Assembly (NCBI RefSeq): GCF_024298765.1
Contig: NZ_CP101210.1
DNA from: Escherichia coli
GTDB taxonomy: Bacteria > Pseudomonadota > Gammaproteobacteria > Enterobacterales > Enterobacteriaceae
Direction: 5' to 3' (one strand)
DNA: 64,000 nucleotides
The notes below the pieces were generated by a model. That model was not told the DNA's origin. It searched no databases and saw only the letters and a list, made by a program, of their open reading frames with translations. How positions within the stretch are numbered: position 1 is the stretch's first letter; each line of letters opens with the position of its first letter. Shown in pieces: positions 17,884 through 27,490 of the stretch. Both the position numbers and the translations under genes were made by a program.

Positions 17884-20633
<2,750 letters not shown>

Positions 20634-20636
20634 GGA

Positions 20637-21284
20637 ATGGGTGAGATGAACCATCAGGATGAATTGCCGTTAGCGAAAGTCAGCGAAGTTGATGAGGCGA
20701 AGCGGCAATGGTTGCAGGGGATGCGTCACCCCGTTGATACGGTAACCGAACCAGAACCTGCTGAAATCCTGGCAGAGTTCATTCGTCAGCATTCTGCGGC
20801 TGGGCAGCTGGTGGCGCGCGCCGTGTTTCTCTCGCCGCCCTATTCGGTTGCAGAAGAGGAACTGTCAGTTTTGCTGGAAAACATTAAGCAGAACGGAGAC
20901 CACGCGGATATCGCGTGTATGACGGGAAGCCAGGATGATTACTATTACTCAACGCAGGCCATGAGTGAAAACTACGCGGCGATGTCTTTGCAAGTTGTGG
21001 AGCAGGACATTTGTCGCGCCATTGCACACGCCGTTCGTTTTGAGTGCCAGACGTATCCTCGTCCTTACAAAGTCGCCATGCTGATGCAAGCGCCATATTA
21101 CTTCCAGGAAGCGCAGATCGAAGCCGCGATCGCCGCGATGGATATTGCACCTGAATATGCTGATATACGGCAGGTGGAGTCATCGACGGCGGTGTTGTAC
21201 TTGTTTAGCGAGCGATTTATGACCTATGGCAAGGCGTATGGCTTATGCGAATGGTTCGAGGTAGAGCAGTTTCAGAACCCCTGA
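20637..21284 (+). CDS. ydhW: Uncharacterised protein YdhW
   Basis: 215-aa ORF in the expected position between ydhV and ydhX. Confidence 0.85.
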   Translation: MGEMNHQDELPLAKVSEVDEAKRQWLQGMRHPVDTVTEPEPAEILAEFIRQHSAAGQLVARAVFLSPPYSVAEEELSVLLENIKQNGDHADIACMTGSQDDYYYSTQAMSENYAAMSLQVVEQDICRAIAHAVRFECQTYPRPYKVAMLMQAPYYFQEAQIEAAIAAMDIAPEYADIRQVESSTAVLYLFSERFMTYGKAYGLCEWFEVEQFQNP

Positions 21285-21347
21285 AATTTCAGGGAGATGT
21301 CATGGATAGGGTGGACAGTAGCAGCCACTGCATTAGGGGATAATCAG

Positions 21348-22016
21348 ATGTCCTTCACTCGACGCAAATTTGTTCTGGGGATGGGAACAGTAATCTTTTT
21401 TACTGGTTCTGCGTCTTCTCTGTTAGCGAACACGATGCAAGAAAAGAAAGTTCGGTATGCCATGATTCATGACGAGTCACGGTGCAATGGCTGTAATATT
21501 TGCGCCCGCGCATGCCGTAAAACTAACCACGTCCCCGCTCAGGGAAGCCGTTTATCGATAGCACACATTCCAGTCACCGATAACGACAACGAAACGCAGT
21601 ATCACTTTTTTCGCCAGTCATGCCAGCACTGTGAAGATGCTCCTTGCATCGACGTTTGCCCGACAGGGGCGTCGTGGCGTGATGAGCAGGGGATCGTGCG
21701 GGTAGAAAAATCGCAGTGCATCGGCTGCAGTTATTGCATTGGCGCTTGTCCTTACCAGGTTCGCTACCTTAACCCTGTCACTAAAGTGGCAGATAAATGT
21801 GATTTCTGCGCTGAGTCCCGACTGGCAAAAGGCTTTCCGCCCATTTGCGTCAGCGCCTGTCCGGAACACGCATTGATCTTTGGTCGCGAAGATAGCCCAG
21901 AAATTCAGGCGTGGTTGCAGGAAAATAAATACTATCAATATCAGCTACCTGGTGCCGGGAAACCGCACCTGTATCGCCGGTTCGGTCAACATTTGATTAA
22001 AAAGGAAAATGTATGA
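21348..22016 (+). CDS. ydhX: Tat-signal 4Fe-4S ferredoxin-type protein (222 aa)
   Basis: ORF 21297-22016 trimmed to MSFTRRKFVLGMG... (twin-arginine motif) with multiple Cys clusters. Confidence 0.88.
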   Translation: MSFTRRKFVLGMGTVIFFTGSASSLLANTMQEKKVRYAMIHDESRCNGCNICARACRKTNHVPAQGSRLSIAHIPVTDNDNETQYHFFRQSCQHCEDAPCIDVCPTGASWRDEQGIVRVEKSQCIGCSYCIGACPYQVRYLNPVTKVADKCDFCAESRLAKGFPPICVSACPEHALIFGREDSPEIQAWLQENKYYQYQLPGAGKPHLYRRFGQHLIKKENV

Positions 22017-22798
22017 ACCCGTCGCAACATGCTGAACAGTTTCAGAGCCAGTTGGCGAACTATGTGCCACTGTTCACTCCCCAATTTTGGCCGGTGTGGT
22101 TGATCATTGCCGGACTATTGCTGGTAGGGATGTGGTTGGTGCTGGGGCTGCATGCCTTGCTTCGTGCTCGTGGCGTGAAGAAATCAGCCAACGACCATGG
22201 TGAGAAGGTTTATCTTTACAGCAAAGCGGTCAGATTATGGCACTGGTCGAATGCGTTACTCTTTGTATTGTTGCTGGCAAGTGGGCTGATAAATCACTTT
22301 GCGCTGGTGGGCGCAACTACGGTTAAAAGTCTGGTTGCGGTGCATGAAGTTTGCGGATTTTTGTTACTGGCATGCTGGCTCGGCTTTGTTCTGATCAATG
22401 CCGTTGGGGGTAATGGTCACCACTATCGCATTCGTCGTCAGGGGTGGCTGGAGCGAGCGGCAAAACAAACGCGATTCTATTTGTTTGGCATTATGCAGGG
22501 GGAAGAACATCCTTTCCCGGCAACAACCCAGTCTAAATTTAATCCCTTACAGCAGGTTGCCTATGTTGGTGTCATGTATGGATTGCTGCCGTTGTTACTA
22601 TTGACGGGGCTGCTGTGTCTCTATCCGCAAGCCGTGGGAGATGTGTTTCCTGGCGTAAGATACTGGTTATTGCAGGCGCATTTTGCTCTGGCATTTATAA
22701 GCCTCTTTTTTATCTTCGGTCATCTTTATCTTTGCACCACGGGGCGTACGCCACACGAAACCTTTAAAAGCATGGTCGATGGCTATCACCGGCACTAA
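22013..22798 (+). CDS. ydhU: Membrane cytochrome b-type subunit (PhsC/NrfD-like)
   Basis: 261-aa hydrophobic ORF recognised as YdhU; overlaps ydhX stop. Confidence 0.88.
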   Translation: MNPSQHAEQFQSQLANYVPLFTPQFWPVWLIIAGLLLVGMWLVLGLHALLRARGVKKSANDHGEKVYLYSKAVRLWHWSNALLFVLLLASGLINHFALVGATTVKSLVAVHEVCGFLLLACWLGFVLINAVGGNGHHYRIRRQGWLERAAKQTRFYLFGIMQGEEHPFPATTQSKFNPLQQVAYVGVMYGLLPLLLLTGLLCLYPQAVGDVFPGVRYWLLQAHFALAFISLFFIFGHLYLCTTGRTPHETFKSMVDGYHRH

Positions 22799-22801
22799 CG
22801 A

Positions 22802-23614
22802 ATGATCATTACACGAGCAGACCTGCGAGAATGGCGTATCGGAGCGGTGATGTATCGCTGGTTTCTGCGCCATTTCCCACGCGGCGGTAGTTATGCCGAT
22901 ATTCATCATGCACTGATTGAGGAAGGATATACGGACTGGGCGGAGAGTCTGGTTGAGTATGCGTGGAAAAAATGGCTGGCGGATGAAAACTTCGCGCATC
23001 AGGAAGTTTCTTCTATGCAAAAACTGGCCACAGATCCCGGAGAGAGAGCATTTTGCAGTCAGTTTGCCCGCAGCGACGATCATGCTCGCATCGGCTGTTG
23101 TGAGGATAATGCCAGAATCGCAACCGCTGGGTATGCCGCGCAAATTGCCAGTATGGGTTATAGCGTGCGGATTGGAAGTGTCGGCTTTAACAGTCACATT
23201 GGCAGCTCCGGTGAACGCGCACGGGTTGCTGTAACCGGTAATTCTTCGCGGATAAGCAGCGCTGGAGATAGCAGTCGGATTGCGAATACCGGAATGCGAG
23301 TACGCGTTTGTACATTGGGTGAACGATGTCATGTCGCCAGTAATGGTGACCTGGTGCAAATCGCCAGCTTTGGCGCAAACGCCAGAATTGCCAACAGCGG
23401 CGACAATGTACACATCATTGCCAGCGGTGAAGATTCAACAATAGTGAGCACGGGCGTGGTCGACTCAATTATTCTCGGGCCAGGGGGAAGCGCCGCACTG
23501 GCATATCATGACGGCGAAAGAGTTCGCTTCGCCGTCGCCATTGAAGGTGAAAACAATATTCGAGCCGGAGTCCGCTATCGCCTTAATGAACAGCATCAGT
23601 TTGTTGAGTGCTGA
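22802..23614 (+). CDS. ydhT: Uncharacterised protein YdhT with internal degenerate repeats
   Basis: 270-aa ORF; last gene of the ydhYVWXUT cluster. Confidence 0.85.
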   Translation: MIITRADLREWRIGAVMYRWFLRHFPRGGSYADIHHALIEEGYTDWAESLVEYAWKKWLADENFAHQEVSSMQKLATDPGERAFCSQFARSDDHARIGCCEDNARIATAGYAAQIASMGYSVRIGSVGFNSHIGSSGERARVAVTGNSSRISSAGDSSRIANTGMRVRVCTLGERCHVASNGDLVQIASFGANARIANSGDNVHIIASGEDSTIVSTGVVDSIILGPGGSAALAYHDGERVRFAVAIEGENNIRAGVRYRLNEQHQFVEC

Positions 23615-25768: not shown

Positions 25769-25845
25769 TGGTGCGTCCGAGTGGACTCGAACCACCGACC
25801 CCCACCATGTCAAGGTGGTGCTCTAACCAACTGAGCTACGGACGC
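25769..25845 (-). tRNA. valW: tRNA-Val (anticodon GAC)
   Basis: Reverse complement GCGTCCGTAGCTCAGTTGGTTAGAGCACCACCTTGACATGGTGGGGGTCGGTGGTTCGAGTCCACTCGGACGCACCA has the cloverleaf hallmarks (GTTCGAGTC T-loop, encoded CCA); the valV/valW assignment follows map order. Confidence 0.9.
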
Positions 25846-25849
25846 AGGA

Positions 25850-25926
25850 TGGTGCGTTCAATTGGACTCGAACCAACGACCCCCACCATGTCAAGGTGGT
25901 GCTCTAACCAACTGAGCTATGAACGC
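25850..25926 (-). tRNA. valV: tRNA-Val (anticodon GAC), tandem copy 4 nt from the first
   Basis: Reverse complement GCGTTCATAGCTCAGTTGGTTAGAGCACCACCTTGACATGGTGGGGGTCGTTGGTTCGAGTCCAATTGAACGCACCA. Confidence 0.9.
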
Positions 25927-26233: not shown

Positions 26234-27490
26234 ATGGGATCTGATGCGAAAAACTTGATGAGCGACGGGAACGTGCAAATTGTTAAGACCGGCGAGGTCA
26301 TTGGCGCGACGCAACTTACTGAAGGTGAGTTAATTGTTGAAGCTGGCGGAAGAGCCGAAAATACCGTGGTCACGGGGGCTGGCTGGTTGAAAGTGGCAAC
26401 CGGTGGGATCGCCAAATGCACACAGTACGGCAACAATGGCACGCTATCGGTCAGCGACGGTGCCATTGCCACAGATATTGTTCAGTCCGAGGGAGGCGCA
26501 ATTAGTCTCTCTACGCTCGCTACGGTTAATGGCCGCCATCCCGAAGGTGAATTCAGCGTTGATAAAGGTTATGCCTGCGGTTTGTTGCTGGAAAATGGCG
26601 GTAACCTGCGTGTACTGGAAGGACATCGCGCGGAAAAAATTATTCTCGATCAAGAGGGTGGCCTGTTGGTCAATGGGACAACCTCAGCGGTCGTGGTAGA
26701 TGAAGGTGGTGAATTGTTGGTGTATCCAGGTGGGGAAGCCAGCAATTGTGAGATTAATCAGGGCGGCGTTTTTATGCTGGCGGGGAAAGCCAATGATACG
26801 TTGCTTGCTGGTGGCACCATGAATAATCTCGGTGGTGAAGACTCTGACACTATTGTTGAGAATGGAGCCATCTATCGTCTGGGTACGGATGGTCTTCAGC
26901 TCTACAGTTCCGGTAAGACGCAAAACCTGTCCGTTAATGTGGGGGGGCGGGCTGAAGTGCATGCCGGTACGCTGGAAAATGCGGTAATACAAGGTGGGAC
27001 AGTGATCCTGTTGTCACCCACCAGCGCGGACGAAAATTTTGTAGTAGAGGAAGATCGCGCACCGGTTGAACTGACCGGTAGTGTTGCATTACTGGACGGC
27101 GCTTCAATGATTATTGGCTATGGCGCAGATCTGCAACAATCAACGATTACTGTACAGCAGGGCGGTGTGTTGATTCTCGACGGCAGTACGGTAAAAGGTG
27201 ACAGTGTCACTTTCAGTGTTGGTAACATCAATCTCAATGGCGGAAAACTGTGGCTGATCACTGATGCGGCAACGCAGGTGCATCTGAAAGTGAAACGCCT
27301 GCGTGGAGAGGGAGCCATTTGCCTGCAAACCAGTGCGAAAGAAATTTCACCTGACTTCATCAATGTGAAAGGGGAAGTTACTGGTGATATACACGTTGAG
27401 ATAACAGATGCCAGTCGGCAAACTCTGTGTAACGCACTGAAACTACAGCCAGACGAAGACGGGATTGGCGCAACGCTCCAGCCTGCGTAA
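26234..27490 (+). CDS. ydhQ: Autotransporter-adhesin-like passenger-domain protein
   Basis: 418-aa Gly/Thr/Asn-rich ORF recognised as YdhQ. Confidence 0.88.
   Translation: MGSDAKNLMSDGNVQIVKTGEVIGATQLTEGELIVEAGGRAENTVVTGAGWLKVATGGIAKCTQYGNNGTLSVSDGAIATDIVQSEGGAISLSTLATVNGRHPEGEFSVDKGYACGLLLENGGNLRVLEGHRAEKIILDQEGGLLVNGTTSAVVVDEGGELLVYPGGEASNCEINQGGVFMLAGKANDTLLAGGTMNNLGGEDSDTIVENGAIYRLGTDGLQLYSSGKTQNLSVNVGGRAEVHAGTLENAVIQGGTVILLSPTSADENFVVEEDRAPVELTGSVALLDGASMIIGYGADLQQSTITVQQGGVLILDGSTVKGDSVTFSVGNINLNGGKLWLITDAATQVHLKVKRLRGEGAICLQTSAKEISPDFINVKGEVTGDIHVEITDASRQTLCNALKLQPDEDGIGATLQPA

What the first reader, a model, noticed from the sequence alone, without database searches (positions are those of the whole stretch)
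22802..23614. Degenerate short internal repeats in YdhT
Residues of roughly 90-230 of the 270-aa product show a recurring pattern of an aliphatic residue plus small or polar residues (…ARIATAGYAAQIASMGYSVRIGSVGFNSHIGSSGERARVAVTGNSSRISSAGDSSRIANTG…). This suggests a repetitive beta-helix-like fold rather than a globular enzyme, for a protein with no assigned function.
Basis: seen in the sequence. Interest (0 to 1): 0.2.

Follow-up and report, generated by a model that had tools for sequence, protein, structure and literature searches.

The report
YdhT: nine-residue-repeat beta-solenoid protein
The last gene of the E. coli ydhYVWXUT anaerobic oxidoreductase operon encodes a non-enzyme-like protein whose middle is 15 exact nine-residue repeats predicted to wind into a rod-shaped beta-solenoid, and its nearest relatives outside the operon are uncharacterised early proteins of bacteriophages; its function is still unknown.

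Summary
Window 22802-23614 (+) encodes YdhT (270 aa; NCBIfam NF007410, 490 bits). Residues 91-225 are 15 contiguous nine-residue units, [AST]-G-[DNYE]-x-[AVST]-[RHQK]-[IVL]-[ASG]-[SN], with no indels. Self-similarity at lag 9 has z = 10.7, reached by 0 of 1000 shuffles.

New context:
- ydhT is always the last gene of ydhYVWX(U)T in at least eight enterobacterial genera.
- It is under strong purifying selection (dN/dS 0.05-0.11) and has unit-specific conserved surface residues.
- The same architecture occurs in phage early and recombination regions, with near-perfect 27-bp DNA repeats and variable copy number.
- The repeat plus cap module also occurs behind other N-terminal domains, mainly DUF7666.
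- The operon copies form one clade nested among the phage copies.

Most likely YdhT is a phage-derived, non-catalytic scaffold or accessory factor of the Ydh (class V WOR) system. That function is inferred, not shown. Interest is modest.

The parts
22802..23614 (+). ydhT coding sequence (270 codons plus stop), the last gene of the ydhYVWXUT operon
   Evidence: ORF list and translation. NCBIfam NF007410 'protein YdhT', 490 bits against a cutoff of 300, full length. Sequences 95-100% identical are annotated ydhT in 5417 of 5426 complete E. coli genomes. dN/dS is 0.05-0.11 against other Escherichia species.
22802..23041 (+). N-terminal domain, residues 1-80: five-helix bundle (YdhT_N, PF27195) with motif L..W....YRWF...FP.GG.Y
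23042..23071 (+). Linker, residues 81-90; the least confident and least conserved stretch
   Evidence: pLDDT < 50 at residues 81-84. Weighted conservation is 0.43, against 0.59-0.73 elsewhere. Longer orthologues carry their extra repeat units at about this point.
23072..23476 (+). Array of 15 nine-residue units, residues 91-225: [AST]-G-[DNYE]-x-[AVST]-[RHQK]-[IVL]-[ASG]-[SN]. Positions 6-9 form the strand and positions 1-5 the arc.
23477..23611 (+). C-terminal cap, residues 226-270: beta-rich domain with motif G.GG.A..Y.DG.R.RF....EGE..I.AGV.Y.L; the most conserved part
   Evidence: AF2 strands at 230-236, 241-247, 258-261 and 267-269, pLDDT 92-96. dN/dS is 0.00-0.04. Conservation is 0.73. 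The cap is shared with phage relatives and matched on its own by phrog_27197 in those relatives.
17884..22798 (+). Upstream operon genes: ydhY (17884-18510), ydhV (18531-20633, within ORF 18447-20633), ydhW (20637-21284), ydhX (21297-22016; the Tat motif TRRKF suggests the true start is near 21348) and ydhU (22013-22798)
   Evidence: ORFs. Pfam: 4Fe-4S domains in YdhY and YdhX, cytochrome b561-type in YdhU, none in YdhW. AFOR_N/AFOR_C is recorded for YdhV orthologues. The same gene order precedes ydhT in every enterobacterial locus that had upstream sequence. The ydhU stop lies 3 nt before the ydhT ATG.

Best explanation
YdhT is a three-part, non-catalytic cytoplasmic protein.

Anatomy:
- A small helical head (YdhT_N).
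- A rigid beta-solenoid rod built from 15 nine-residue units. In each unit the invariant Gly at position 2 makes the turn. The Ile/Val at position 7, with the small residues at positions 5 and 9, fills a narrow core. Positions 3, 4 and 6 (Asp/Tyr/Asn and Arg/His/Gln) face the solvent.
- A conserved beta cap that closes the C-terminal end.

The rod most probably has two units per 18-residue coil, giving a two-sheet, RTX-like roll without calcium of about 7.5 coils.

Origin: it descends from a family of phage early proteins and became fixed as the last gene of the FNR-activated ydhYVWX(U)T operon in Enterobacterales.

Proposed function: it acts as a protein-binding scaffold or accessory factor for the Ydh (class V WOR / YdhV) oxidoreductase. 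The most plausible role is on the cytoplasmic side, before or during assembly and Tat export of the YdhV-YdhY/YdhX module, rather than as an electron-transfer subunit.

Shown here: the repeat, the predicted fold, the gene linkage, purifying selection and homology to phage proteins.

Inferred only: two units per coil, cytoplasmic location, binding to Ydh proteins and the assembly or escort role.
For: Repeat and fold:
-.

Not an enzyme or cofactor protein:
- No catalytic family is hit.
- No Cys is conserved (invariant list).
- There is no hydrophobic segment (maximum 19-residue Kyte-Doolittle value 1.25) and no signal-like N-terminus.

Tied to the operon:
- ydhT directly follows ydhU, or ydhX in Edwardsiella, in Escherichia, Citrobacter, Limnobaculum, Brenneria, Serratia, Proteus, Symbiopectobacterium and Edwardsiella. 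The flanking genes differ between genera.
- The gap to ydhU is 3 nt and no internal promoter signal exceeds chance.
- The operon has an FNR site at -42.5 (PMC3688515).

Functional and specific:
- dN/dS is 0.05-0.11.
- Particular surface residues of particular units (Y111, Q114, R139, R141, N147, R166, D102, D183, D201) are conserved over 39 orthologues. In phage relatives all units are nearly alike.

Not dependent on YdhU:
- Edwardsiella keeps ydhT but lacks ydhU.

Phage origin:
- Full-length homologues occur in Edwardsiella phage GF-2 (right after the N-like antiterminator), Komagataeibacter phage phiKX1 and metagenomic phage contigs, next to RecT, YqaJ/RusA and helicase genes.
- The operon clade is nested among them in a neighbour-joining tree.
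Against: - No physical or genetic evidence links YdhT to any Ydh protein. The literature searched gives no function even for the enzyme.
- YdhT evolves much faster than the redox subunits: 34% identity between E. coli and Proteus, against 80% for YdhV.
- Several E. coli lineages carry frameshifted alleles, so the gene can be lost.
- Per PMC13328260, YdhV over-expressed without the rest of the operon still acquired Mo in 40% of molecules. YdhT is therefore not strictly needed for cofactor insertion, although the chromosomal copy may have been present.
- Its relatives live in phage early regions that have nothing to do with respiration.
Confidence: 0.4

Rival explanations
1. YdhT is a captured phage gene that keeps a phage-type function unrelated to the oxidoreductase, for example interference with incoming phage or with DNA recombination or nuclease systems. 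On this reading it merely rides on the operon's transcript.
For: - The closest non-operon homologues are phage early genes. They lie beside the N antiterminator, an antirepressor, Erf/SSB, RecT, YqaJ, RusA and helicases.
- YdhT evolves quickly.
- It is dispensable in some E. coli lineages.
- The repeat plus cap module is fused to Macro (DarG-like), DUF7666 and PcfJ-like heads, which are typical of conflict systems.
Against: - The position as last gene of the same operon is kept across at least eight genera with different flanks, and in Edwardsiella after loss of ydhU.
- Purifying selection is strong.
- The surface has become unit-specific and fixed, unlike the homogeneous phage repeats.
- There is no PADLOC match.
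- Expression would be restricted to anaerobiosis without nitrate, an odd regulation for a defence gene (my inference from the operon's FNR control).
Confidence: 0.2
2. The Arg/His/Tyr/Asn-lined face of the solenoid binds a small anionic ligand. Candidates are the pyranopterin (MPT) cofactor phosphates, molybdate or tungstate. YdhT would then act as a carrier or insertion factor for the unusual bis-Mo-MPT cofactor of YdhV.
For: - R123, R139, R141, R166, Y111, Q114 and N147 are conserved on the repeat surface.
- The repeat region carries a net charge of 0 to +5 in all operon orthologues.
- YdhV is reported to bind a bis-Mo-MPT cofactor (Reschke 2019, title as cited in PMC13328260). My recollection is that this is unique in E. 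coli, which would make a private factor plausible.
Against: - No known cofactor-binding family or motif is hit.
- YdhV over-expressed alone still incorporated Mo.
- Phage homologues have no conceivable need for Moco, and their repeat charge varies from -7 to +4.
Confidence: 0.1
3. YdhT self-assembles end to end into filaments, in the way bactofilin or curli-type solenoids do, and so has a cytoskeletal or amyloid-like role.
Against: - Both ends of the rod are covered, by the helical head and by a conserved cap. This is the usual way to prevent end-to-end stacking.
- There is no bactofilin or curlin Pfam hit even at E <= 1.
- There is no secretion signal.
Confidence: 0.05
4. It is an RTX-type calcium-binding beta-roll, a collagen-like protein (as the phage GF-2 homologue is annotated), or another already named repeat class.
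Against: - When the aliphatic positions are aligned, the RTX Gly-Gly and Asp positions fall on Ser, Ala/Ser/Thr and Ala/Val/Ser.
- There is no HemolysinCabind hit.
- Lag-3, lag-5 and lag-6 autocorrelations are at or below chance: z = -0.64, -1.83 and 0.16.
- The model is beta-strand, not a triple helix.
Confidence: 0.02

Closest known systems
Uncharacterised phage proteins with SSG-x-x-A-x-I-G nonapeptide repeats: phrog_4433, phrog_18079, phrog_27197, DUF7666-containing proteins, Edwardsiella phage GF-2 gp55, Komagataeibacter phage phiKX1 PhiKX1_180
   Same: These are true homologues.
- A profile search finds 1191 cluster representatives at E <= 1e-3 and 495 at E <= 1e-10.
- They share the nine-residue unit and the C-terminal cap, and a subset share YdhT_N.
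- Foldseek against BFVD hits them at E down to 1e-9.
   Different: - Phage copies have near-identical units. GF-2 has 20.9 copies of a 27-bp DNA repeat at 89% match.
- Their copy number is variable, roughly 6-22 or more.
- They keep a conserved Cys in the head motif (W.AC..G..WF) that operon YdhT has lost.
- They have varied heads: DUF7666 in 62 of 131, plus Macro and PcfJ-like.
- They sit in early or recombination regions rather than a respiratory operon.
- None has a known function.
RTX nonapeptide beta-roll (GGxGxDxUx; for example Bordetella CyaA blocks IV-V, PDB 6sus)
   Different: YdhT has no GG/D calcium-binding consensus and no Pfam hit. It has no secretion signal and is predicted cytoplasmic. 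Sequence identity is 8% or less.
Marinomonas primoryensis antifreeze/adhesin region IV (PDB 3p4g)
   Different: From my own knowledge it has 19-residue calcium-bound coils and is an extracellular ice-binding adhesin. Identity is 12%. The match is a fold resemblance only.
Curli subunit CsgA (PDB 8c50, 8enq)
   Different: Curli is a secreted amyloid with longer repeats and Gln/Asn ladders and open ends for polymerisation (my knowledge). YdhT is capped at both ends and has no curlin Pfam hit.
Redox-enzyme maturation proteins of Tat-exported molybdoenzymes (TorD/DmsD/NarJ family, NapD)
   Same: As I recall, these are small cytoplasmic, cofactor-less proteins encoded in the operon of the enzyme they escort. 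This matches only the role proposed here for YdhT.
   Different: There is no sequence or fold relationship. Those proteins are all-helical or ferredoxin-like (my knowledge), whereas YdhT is a beta-solenoid. No binding to a Tat signal peptide has been tested.

Membership tests
YdhT family (NCBIfam NF007410, equivalog) | Full-length match above the curated cutoff of 300 bits | tested here: met
   490.1 bits, residues 2-270 on profile positions 1-269 of 269.
YdhT family / Pfam PF27195 YdhT_N | N-terminal YdhT_N domain present | tested here: met
   PF27195 is precomputed for the 98%-identical cluster representative P0001 and all orthologues, and is named YdhT_N. The model is not in the local Pfam copy, so it could not be rescored directly. 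A YdhT_N HMM built here matches residues 1-80 at E about 1e-34.
Beta-solenoid / parallel beta-helix fold class | Stacked coils of short parallel strands built from tandem sequence repeats | tested here: met
Beta-solenoid, two-sheet (beta-roll) subtype | Two repeat units (18 residues) per coil | tested here: inconclusive
RTX calcium-binding repeats (PF00353) | GGxGxDxUx consensus with Gly-Gly and Asp ligands | tested here: not met
   The consensus is [AST]-G-[DNYE]-x-[AVST]-[RHQK]-[IVL]-[ASG]-[SN]. There is no Pfam hit at E <= 1.
Collagen-like triple helix (annotation of the phage GF-2 homologue) | Gly at every third residue (G-X-Y) | tested here: not met
   Gly recurs every ninth residue. The lag-3 z score is -0.64. 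The model is beta-strand. The 'Collagen' Pfam hits in 11 relatives were mostly not localised; where checked, one lies in the repeat region at sub-threshold score (P0145) and one in a genuine N-terminal G-P-x tract (P0174).
Hexapeptide (LbH), pentapeptide and bactofilin repeat families | Period of 6 or 5 residues, or a match to the family's Pfam model | tested here: not met
   Lag 6 z = 0.16 and lag 5 z = -1.83. None of these Pfam models is hit at E <= 1.
Subunit or accessory factor of the Ydh (class V WOR) oxidoreductase | Conserved co-location and co-transcription with ydhYVWX(U) | tested here: met
   ydhT is the last gene of the operon in every enterobacterial locus that had upstream sequence. 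The gap to ydhU is 3 nt. The operon is listed as one FNR-activated unit (PMC3688515).
Subunit or accessory factor of the Ydh (class V WOR) oxidoreductase | Physical association with, or functional requirement for, the enzyme | not testable with these tools
   No interaction or phenotype data were found. The structure tool does not return inter-chain confidence.
Known anti-phage defence systems (PADLOC) | Match to a defence-system protein model | tested here: not met
   No hit for YdhT or its YdhT_N-type phage homologues. Only the Macro head of a fused relative hits DarG.

The most novel reading that the evidence does not exclude
YdhT represents a previously undescribed class of calcium-independent nonapeptide beta-solenoid that is abundant in phage early regions. 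One lineage was domesticated in Enterobacterales as a dedicated assembly or escort factor for the Tat-exported, AOR-type molybdo/tungsto-enzyme YdhV. That would make it a new structural kind of redox-enzyme maturation protein, of viral origin.
Probability: 0.15. Interest if true: 0.6.

Novelty: new variant of a known kind. Interest (0 to 1): 0.3.

Why it matters
YdhT is one of two orphan proteins in the operon of the only AOR-family (class V WOR) enzyme of E. coli. [quoted passage not shown]

Knowing that YdhT is a capped, non-catalytic beta-solenoid with a fixed, conserved surface patch narrows what to test: binding partners, rather than catalysis.

The link to a large uncharacterised family of phage early proteins has two uses. 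The family has at least 1191 clusters at 50% identity, variable heads (YdhT_N, DUF7666, Macro, PcfJ-like) and hyper-variable repeat number. First, it gives that phage family a tractable, genetically accessible E. coli member. Second, it corrects misleading 'collagen-like' annotations.

It is not a surprise to a specialist that an orphan repeat protein folds as a beta-solenoid.

Tried and rejected
- The first autocorrelation script timed out and was re-run vectorised.
- PDB sequence searches with the protein and with the N-domain profile found nothing significant.
It was repeated with A1, which is biased towards operon-type relatives.
- The afdb50 fold library was unavailable, so no AlphaFold DB neighbours were obtained.
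- DNA-mimic idea (an acidic rod like pentapeptide proteins): rejected as a general property. The net charge of the repeat region is 0 to +5 in operon copies and -7 to +4 in phage copies.
- YdhU-anchor idea: weakened because Edwardsiella keeps ydhT without ydhU.
- The YdhW homologue search was meant to find operons lacking ydhT. It was saturated by close relatives and was uninformative.
- Partridge et al. 2008 is not held, so the operon's transcription is cited second-hand.
- The machine-learning paper listing ydhT as a predictor of phage CBDS-07 infection used pooled E. coli and Salmonella pangenomes. It was judged uninformative because ydhT presence probably just separates the two genera; this rests partly on my recollection that Salmonella lacks the ydh operon, and the A1-based scan returned no Salmonella locus.
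- No paper in the library mentions DUF7666. Searches for nonapeptide beta-solenoids in phages and for the accessions listed nothing relevant among the top-ranked papers.

Full report
**What is at the coordinates.** Window 22802-23614 (+) is a 270-codon ORF. It matches NCBIfam NF007410 'protein YdhT' over its full length at 490 bits against a cutoff of 300. Sequences 95-100% identical are annotated ydhT in 5417 of 5426 complete E. coli genomes. Upstream on the same strand lie ydhY, ydhV, ydhW, ydhX and ydhU: 4Fe-4S proteins, an AOR-type subunit, an orphan, and a cytochrome b561-type membrane protein. The ydhU stop is 3 nt before the ydhT ATG, and no promoter-like signal above chance lies between them. 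Downstream, ydhS converges on the minus strand. The window is therefore the E. coli ydhYVWXUT locus, an FNR-activated operon with an FNR site at -42.5 (PMC3688515).

**Checking the observation.** The quoted peptide is present. Residues 91-225 fall into 15 contiguous nine-residue units with no indels. The unit consensus is [AST]-G-[DNYE]-x-[AVST]-[RHQK]-[IVL]-[ASG]-[SN]. Gly is at position 2 in 13 of 15 units and Ile or Val at position 7 in 15 of 15. BLOSUM62 self-similarity has z = 10.7, 10.1, 10.0, 9.2 and 8.6 at lags 9, 18, 27, 36 and 45. No shuffle out of 1000 reaches the observed values, and all other lags are at or below chance. The repeat is invisible at DNA level, with no 27-bp array and no direct repeats, so it is old and degenerate. 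The long antisense ORF at 22667-23413 needs no separate explanation: dN/dS in the + frame is 0.05-0.11.

**Fold.** AlphaFold2 on 16 orthologues gives mean pLDDT 88.4 and pTM 0.82.
- Five helices lie in residues 5-77, followed by a poorly defined linker at 81-90.
- One 4-residue strand falls on unit positions 6-9 in every unit, at pLDDT 89-97.
- Longer strands at 220-269 form a cap.

The best hits are mostly two-sheet solenoids with 18-23-residue coils, and each unit has a 5-residue arc. I therefore infer two units per coil, about 7.5 coils in all. Named repeat classes fail:
- RTX: the Gly-Gly and Asp positions are absent.
- Collagen: lag-3 z = -0.64.
- Hexapeptide: lag-6 z = 0.16.
- Pentapeptide: lag-5 z = -1.83.
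- None of their Pfam models, nor bactofilin or curlin, is hit at E <= 1.

**Linkage to the operon.** A scan of about 100,000 species' genomes, plus exact-protein look-ups, recovered orthologues in Escherichia, Citrobacter, a MAG labelled Raoultella, Limnobaculum/Jinshanibacter, Brenneria, Serratia marcescens, Symbiopectobacterium, nine Proteus species and Edwardsiella tarda. In every locus with upstream sequence, tblastn with the window's proteins finds ydhY-V-W-X-U immediately before ydhT, while the flanking genes differ. Edwardsiella has Y-V-W-X-T without ydhU, next to a nap operon. YdhT therefore does not depend on the membrane cytochrome.

YdhT and YdhW evolve fastest. Between E. coli and Proteus the identities are 80% (V), 77% (Y), 67% (X), 62% (U), 42% (W) and 34% (T). 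Even so, within Escherichia dN/dS is 0.05-0.11. Across 39 orthologues, particular surface residues of particular units are almost invariant: Y111 and Q114 in unit 3, R139 and R141 in unit 6, N147 in unit 7 and R166 in unit 9, plus D102, D183 and D201. A fixed, differentiated surface is what a specific binding partner or ligand would impose.

**Relatives elsewhere.** An exhaustive profile search of 1.84 billion cluster representatives finds 1191 proteins at E <= 1e-3 and 495 at E <= 1e-10.
- About half of the proteins fetched carry YdhT_N (99 of 194 match the HMM, including fragments).
- Others match only the repeats plus cap, behind different heads: DUF7666 in 62 of 131, and rarely Macro (DarG-like), PcfJ-like or DUF3060.
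- YdhT hits phrog_4433. Its relatives hit phrog_4433, 18079, 14105 and the cap-only phrog_27197, all of unknown function.
- Foldseek against BFVD finds only uncharacterised phage proteins.

Full-length YdhT-like proteins are encoded in several phage settings:
- Edwardsiella phage GF-2, directly after the N-like antiterminator and upstream of cIII, Erf and SSB, annotated 'putative collagen-like protein'.
- Komagataeibacter phage phiKX1, after an antirepressor.
- Metagenomic phage contigs, next to RecT, YqaJ/RusA/GapR, or AAA_24/DUF669/helicase/Prim-Pol genes.

Their units are nearly identical (SSG[DNY]xA[RQ]IG). GF-2 has 20.9 copies of a 27-bp DNA repeat at 89% match. Copy number ranges from about 6 to more than 20. 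A neighbour-joining tree on head plus cap puts all operon copies in one clade nested among phage and metagenomic sequences, with GF-2 gp55 and P0058 among the nearest outgroups (no bootstrap). The simplest reading is a single capture of a phage early gene at the 3' end of the ydh operon in an enterobacterial ancestor. The repeat number was then frozen and the units differentiated.

**How it most likely works.** The shown facts are a capped beta-solenoid rod with a small helical head, no catalytic or cofactor signature, strict operon linkage, purifying selection and a unit-specific conserved surface. From these I infer that YdhT is a non-catalytic binding scaffold dedicated to the Ydh system.

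The redox module is thought to be periplasmic, via Tat-type signals on the Fe-S subunits (PMC13328260). YdhX has TRRKF and YdhY has TRLEFL. YdhT looks cytoplasmic and persists without YdhU. The most plausible specific role is therefore an assembly or escort factor acting before export, alongside the other orphan, YdhW. I put 0.4 on the general scaffold or accessory statement and about 0.15 on the specific maturation-factor version.

Rivals:
- A phage-type function unrelated to the enzyme (0.2).
- An anionic-ligand or Moco carrier (0.1).
- A filament former (0.05; both ends are capped).
- A known repeat class such as RTX or collagen (0.02; failed sequence tests).

A uniform DNA-mimic role is not supported, because repeat charge ranges from -7 to +5.

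**Novelty and score.** The gene, its family model and the YdhT_N domain are already in databases. The operon's regulation is published. Neither YdhT nor the class V WOR enzyme has a known function. No paper in the library mentions DUF7666. Searches for YdhT, for nonapeptide beta-solenoids in phages, and for the family accessions listed nothing describing the fold or the phage family among the ranked papers. The fold itself is an ordinary kind. The nine-residue, calcium-independent unit and the phage-to-respiratory-operon history make it a new variant rather than a new category. Interest is 0.3.

Noticed in passing
window 22802-23614; proteins P0004, P0006, P0008, P0028, P0035: Some E. coli-derived sequences carry frameshifted ydhT alleles that lose the C-terminal cap or the last repeats. 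Cluster P0006, for example, stands for 169 member sequences and occurs on a 348-kb NCBI contig. The gene therefore appears to be pseudogenised in some lineages.
   Followed up: partly
protein P0011 (E. coli, NCBI TPA record) against window residues 114-185: This allele has an in-frame deletion of exactly 72 residues, which is 8 repeat units. It joins unit 3 to unit 11 at the shared QIAS. No long DNA repeat exists in the window allele to explain it. It could be real unit-wise recombination or an assembly artefact.
   Followed up: partly
literature: PMC12505973 (Serratia symbiotica CWBI-2.3): A laboratory-evolved clone, LT-05, carries a 54-bp deletion in a 1413-nt gene annotated ydhT_1. The deletion equals two 27-bp units. 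This fits repeat slippage in a longer YdhT-like, probably prophage, paralogue. The clone also has a dam mutation and reduced virulence.
   Followed up: partly
L009 6001-7047 (Edwardsiella phage GF-2 gp55): The gene is annotated 'putative collagen-like protein', but it is a YdhT_N plus nonapeptide-repeat plus cap protein with 20.9 copies of a 27-bp repeat. Gly recurs every ninth residue, not every third, so the annotation is misleading.
   Followed up: yes
L001 5690-10954 (Edwardsiella tarda): The ydh operon here lacks ydhU (order Y-V-W-X-T) and lies beside a nap (periplasmic nitrate reductase) cluster that includes a NapC-type cytochrome. This hints at a different quinol-coupling partner.
   Followed up: no
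window 17884-18510 (ydhY) and 21297-22016 (ydhX): The YdhY N-terminus reads ...LTRLEFLRISGKGLAGLTIAPALLSLLGC..., a Tat-like motif with a single Arg followed by a lipobox-like LLGC, so it may be a lipoprotein. The longest ydhX ORF starts 17 codons before the Tat motif MSFTRRKF, so the real start is probably near 21348.
   Followed up: no
window 22667-23413, minus strand: A 248-aa ORF runs antisense through most of ydhT. Strong purifying selection in the + frame makes a second gene there unnecessary. It was not tested separately.
   Followed up: partly
phage record CP025887.1 ('Escherichia phage 503046', 23 kb), positions 18751-19560: This unannotated 'phage' record contains ydhT at 98% protein identity over its full length. 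It looks like a chromosomal fragment deposited as phage, or a transducing or mis-binned sequence.
   Followed up: no
window 25769-25926 (minus) and 26234-27490 (plus): There are two tandem tRNA-Val(GAC) genes. Next to them lies a 418-aa ORF with AIDA and Pertactin autotransporter-passenger domains. It is a second, unrelated beta-helix repeat protein in the same window and apparently lacks a translocator domain.
   Followed up: partly
proteins P0071 and P0107 (metagenomic relatives): In these proteins a Macro domain resembling the antitoxin DarG (PADLOC E 2e-20 for P0071) is fused to a DUF7666-type region (significant Pfam hit in P0071 only), the nonapeptide solenoid and the cap. This suggests that some family members deal with ADP-ribosylation in phage-host conflict.
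   Followed up: no
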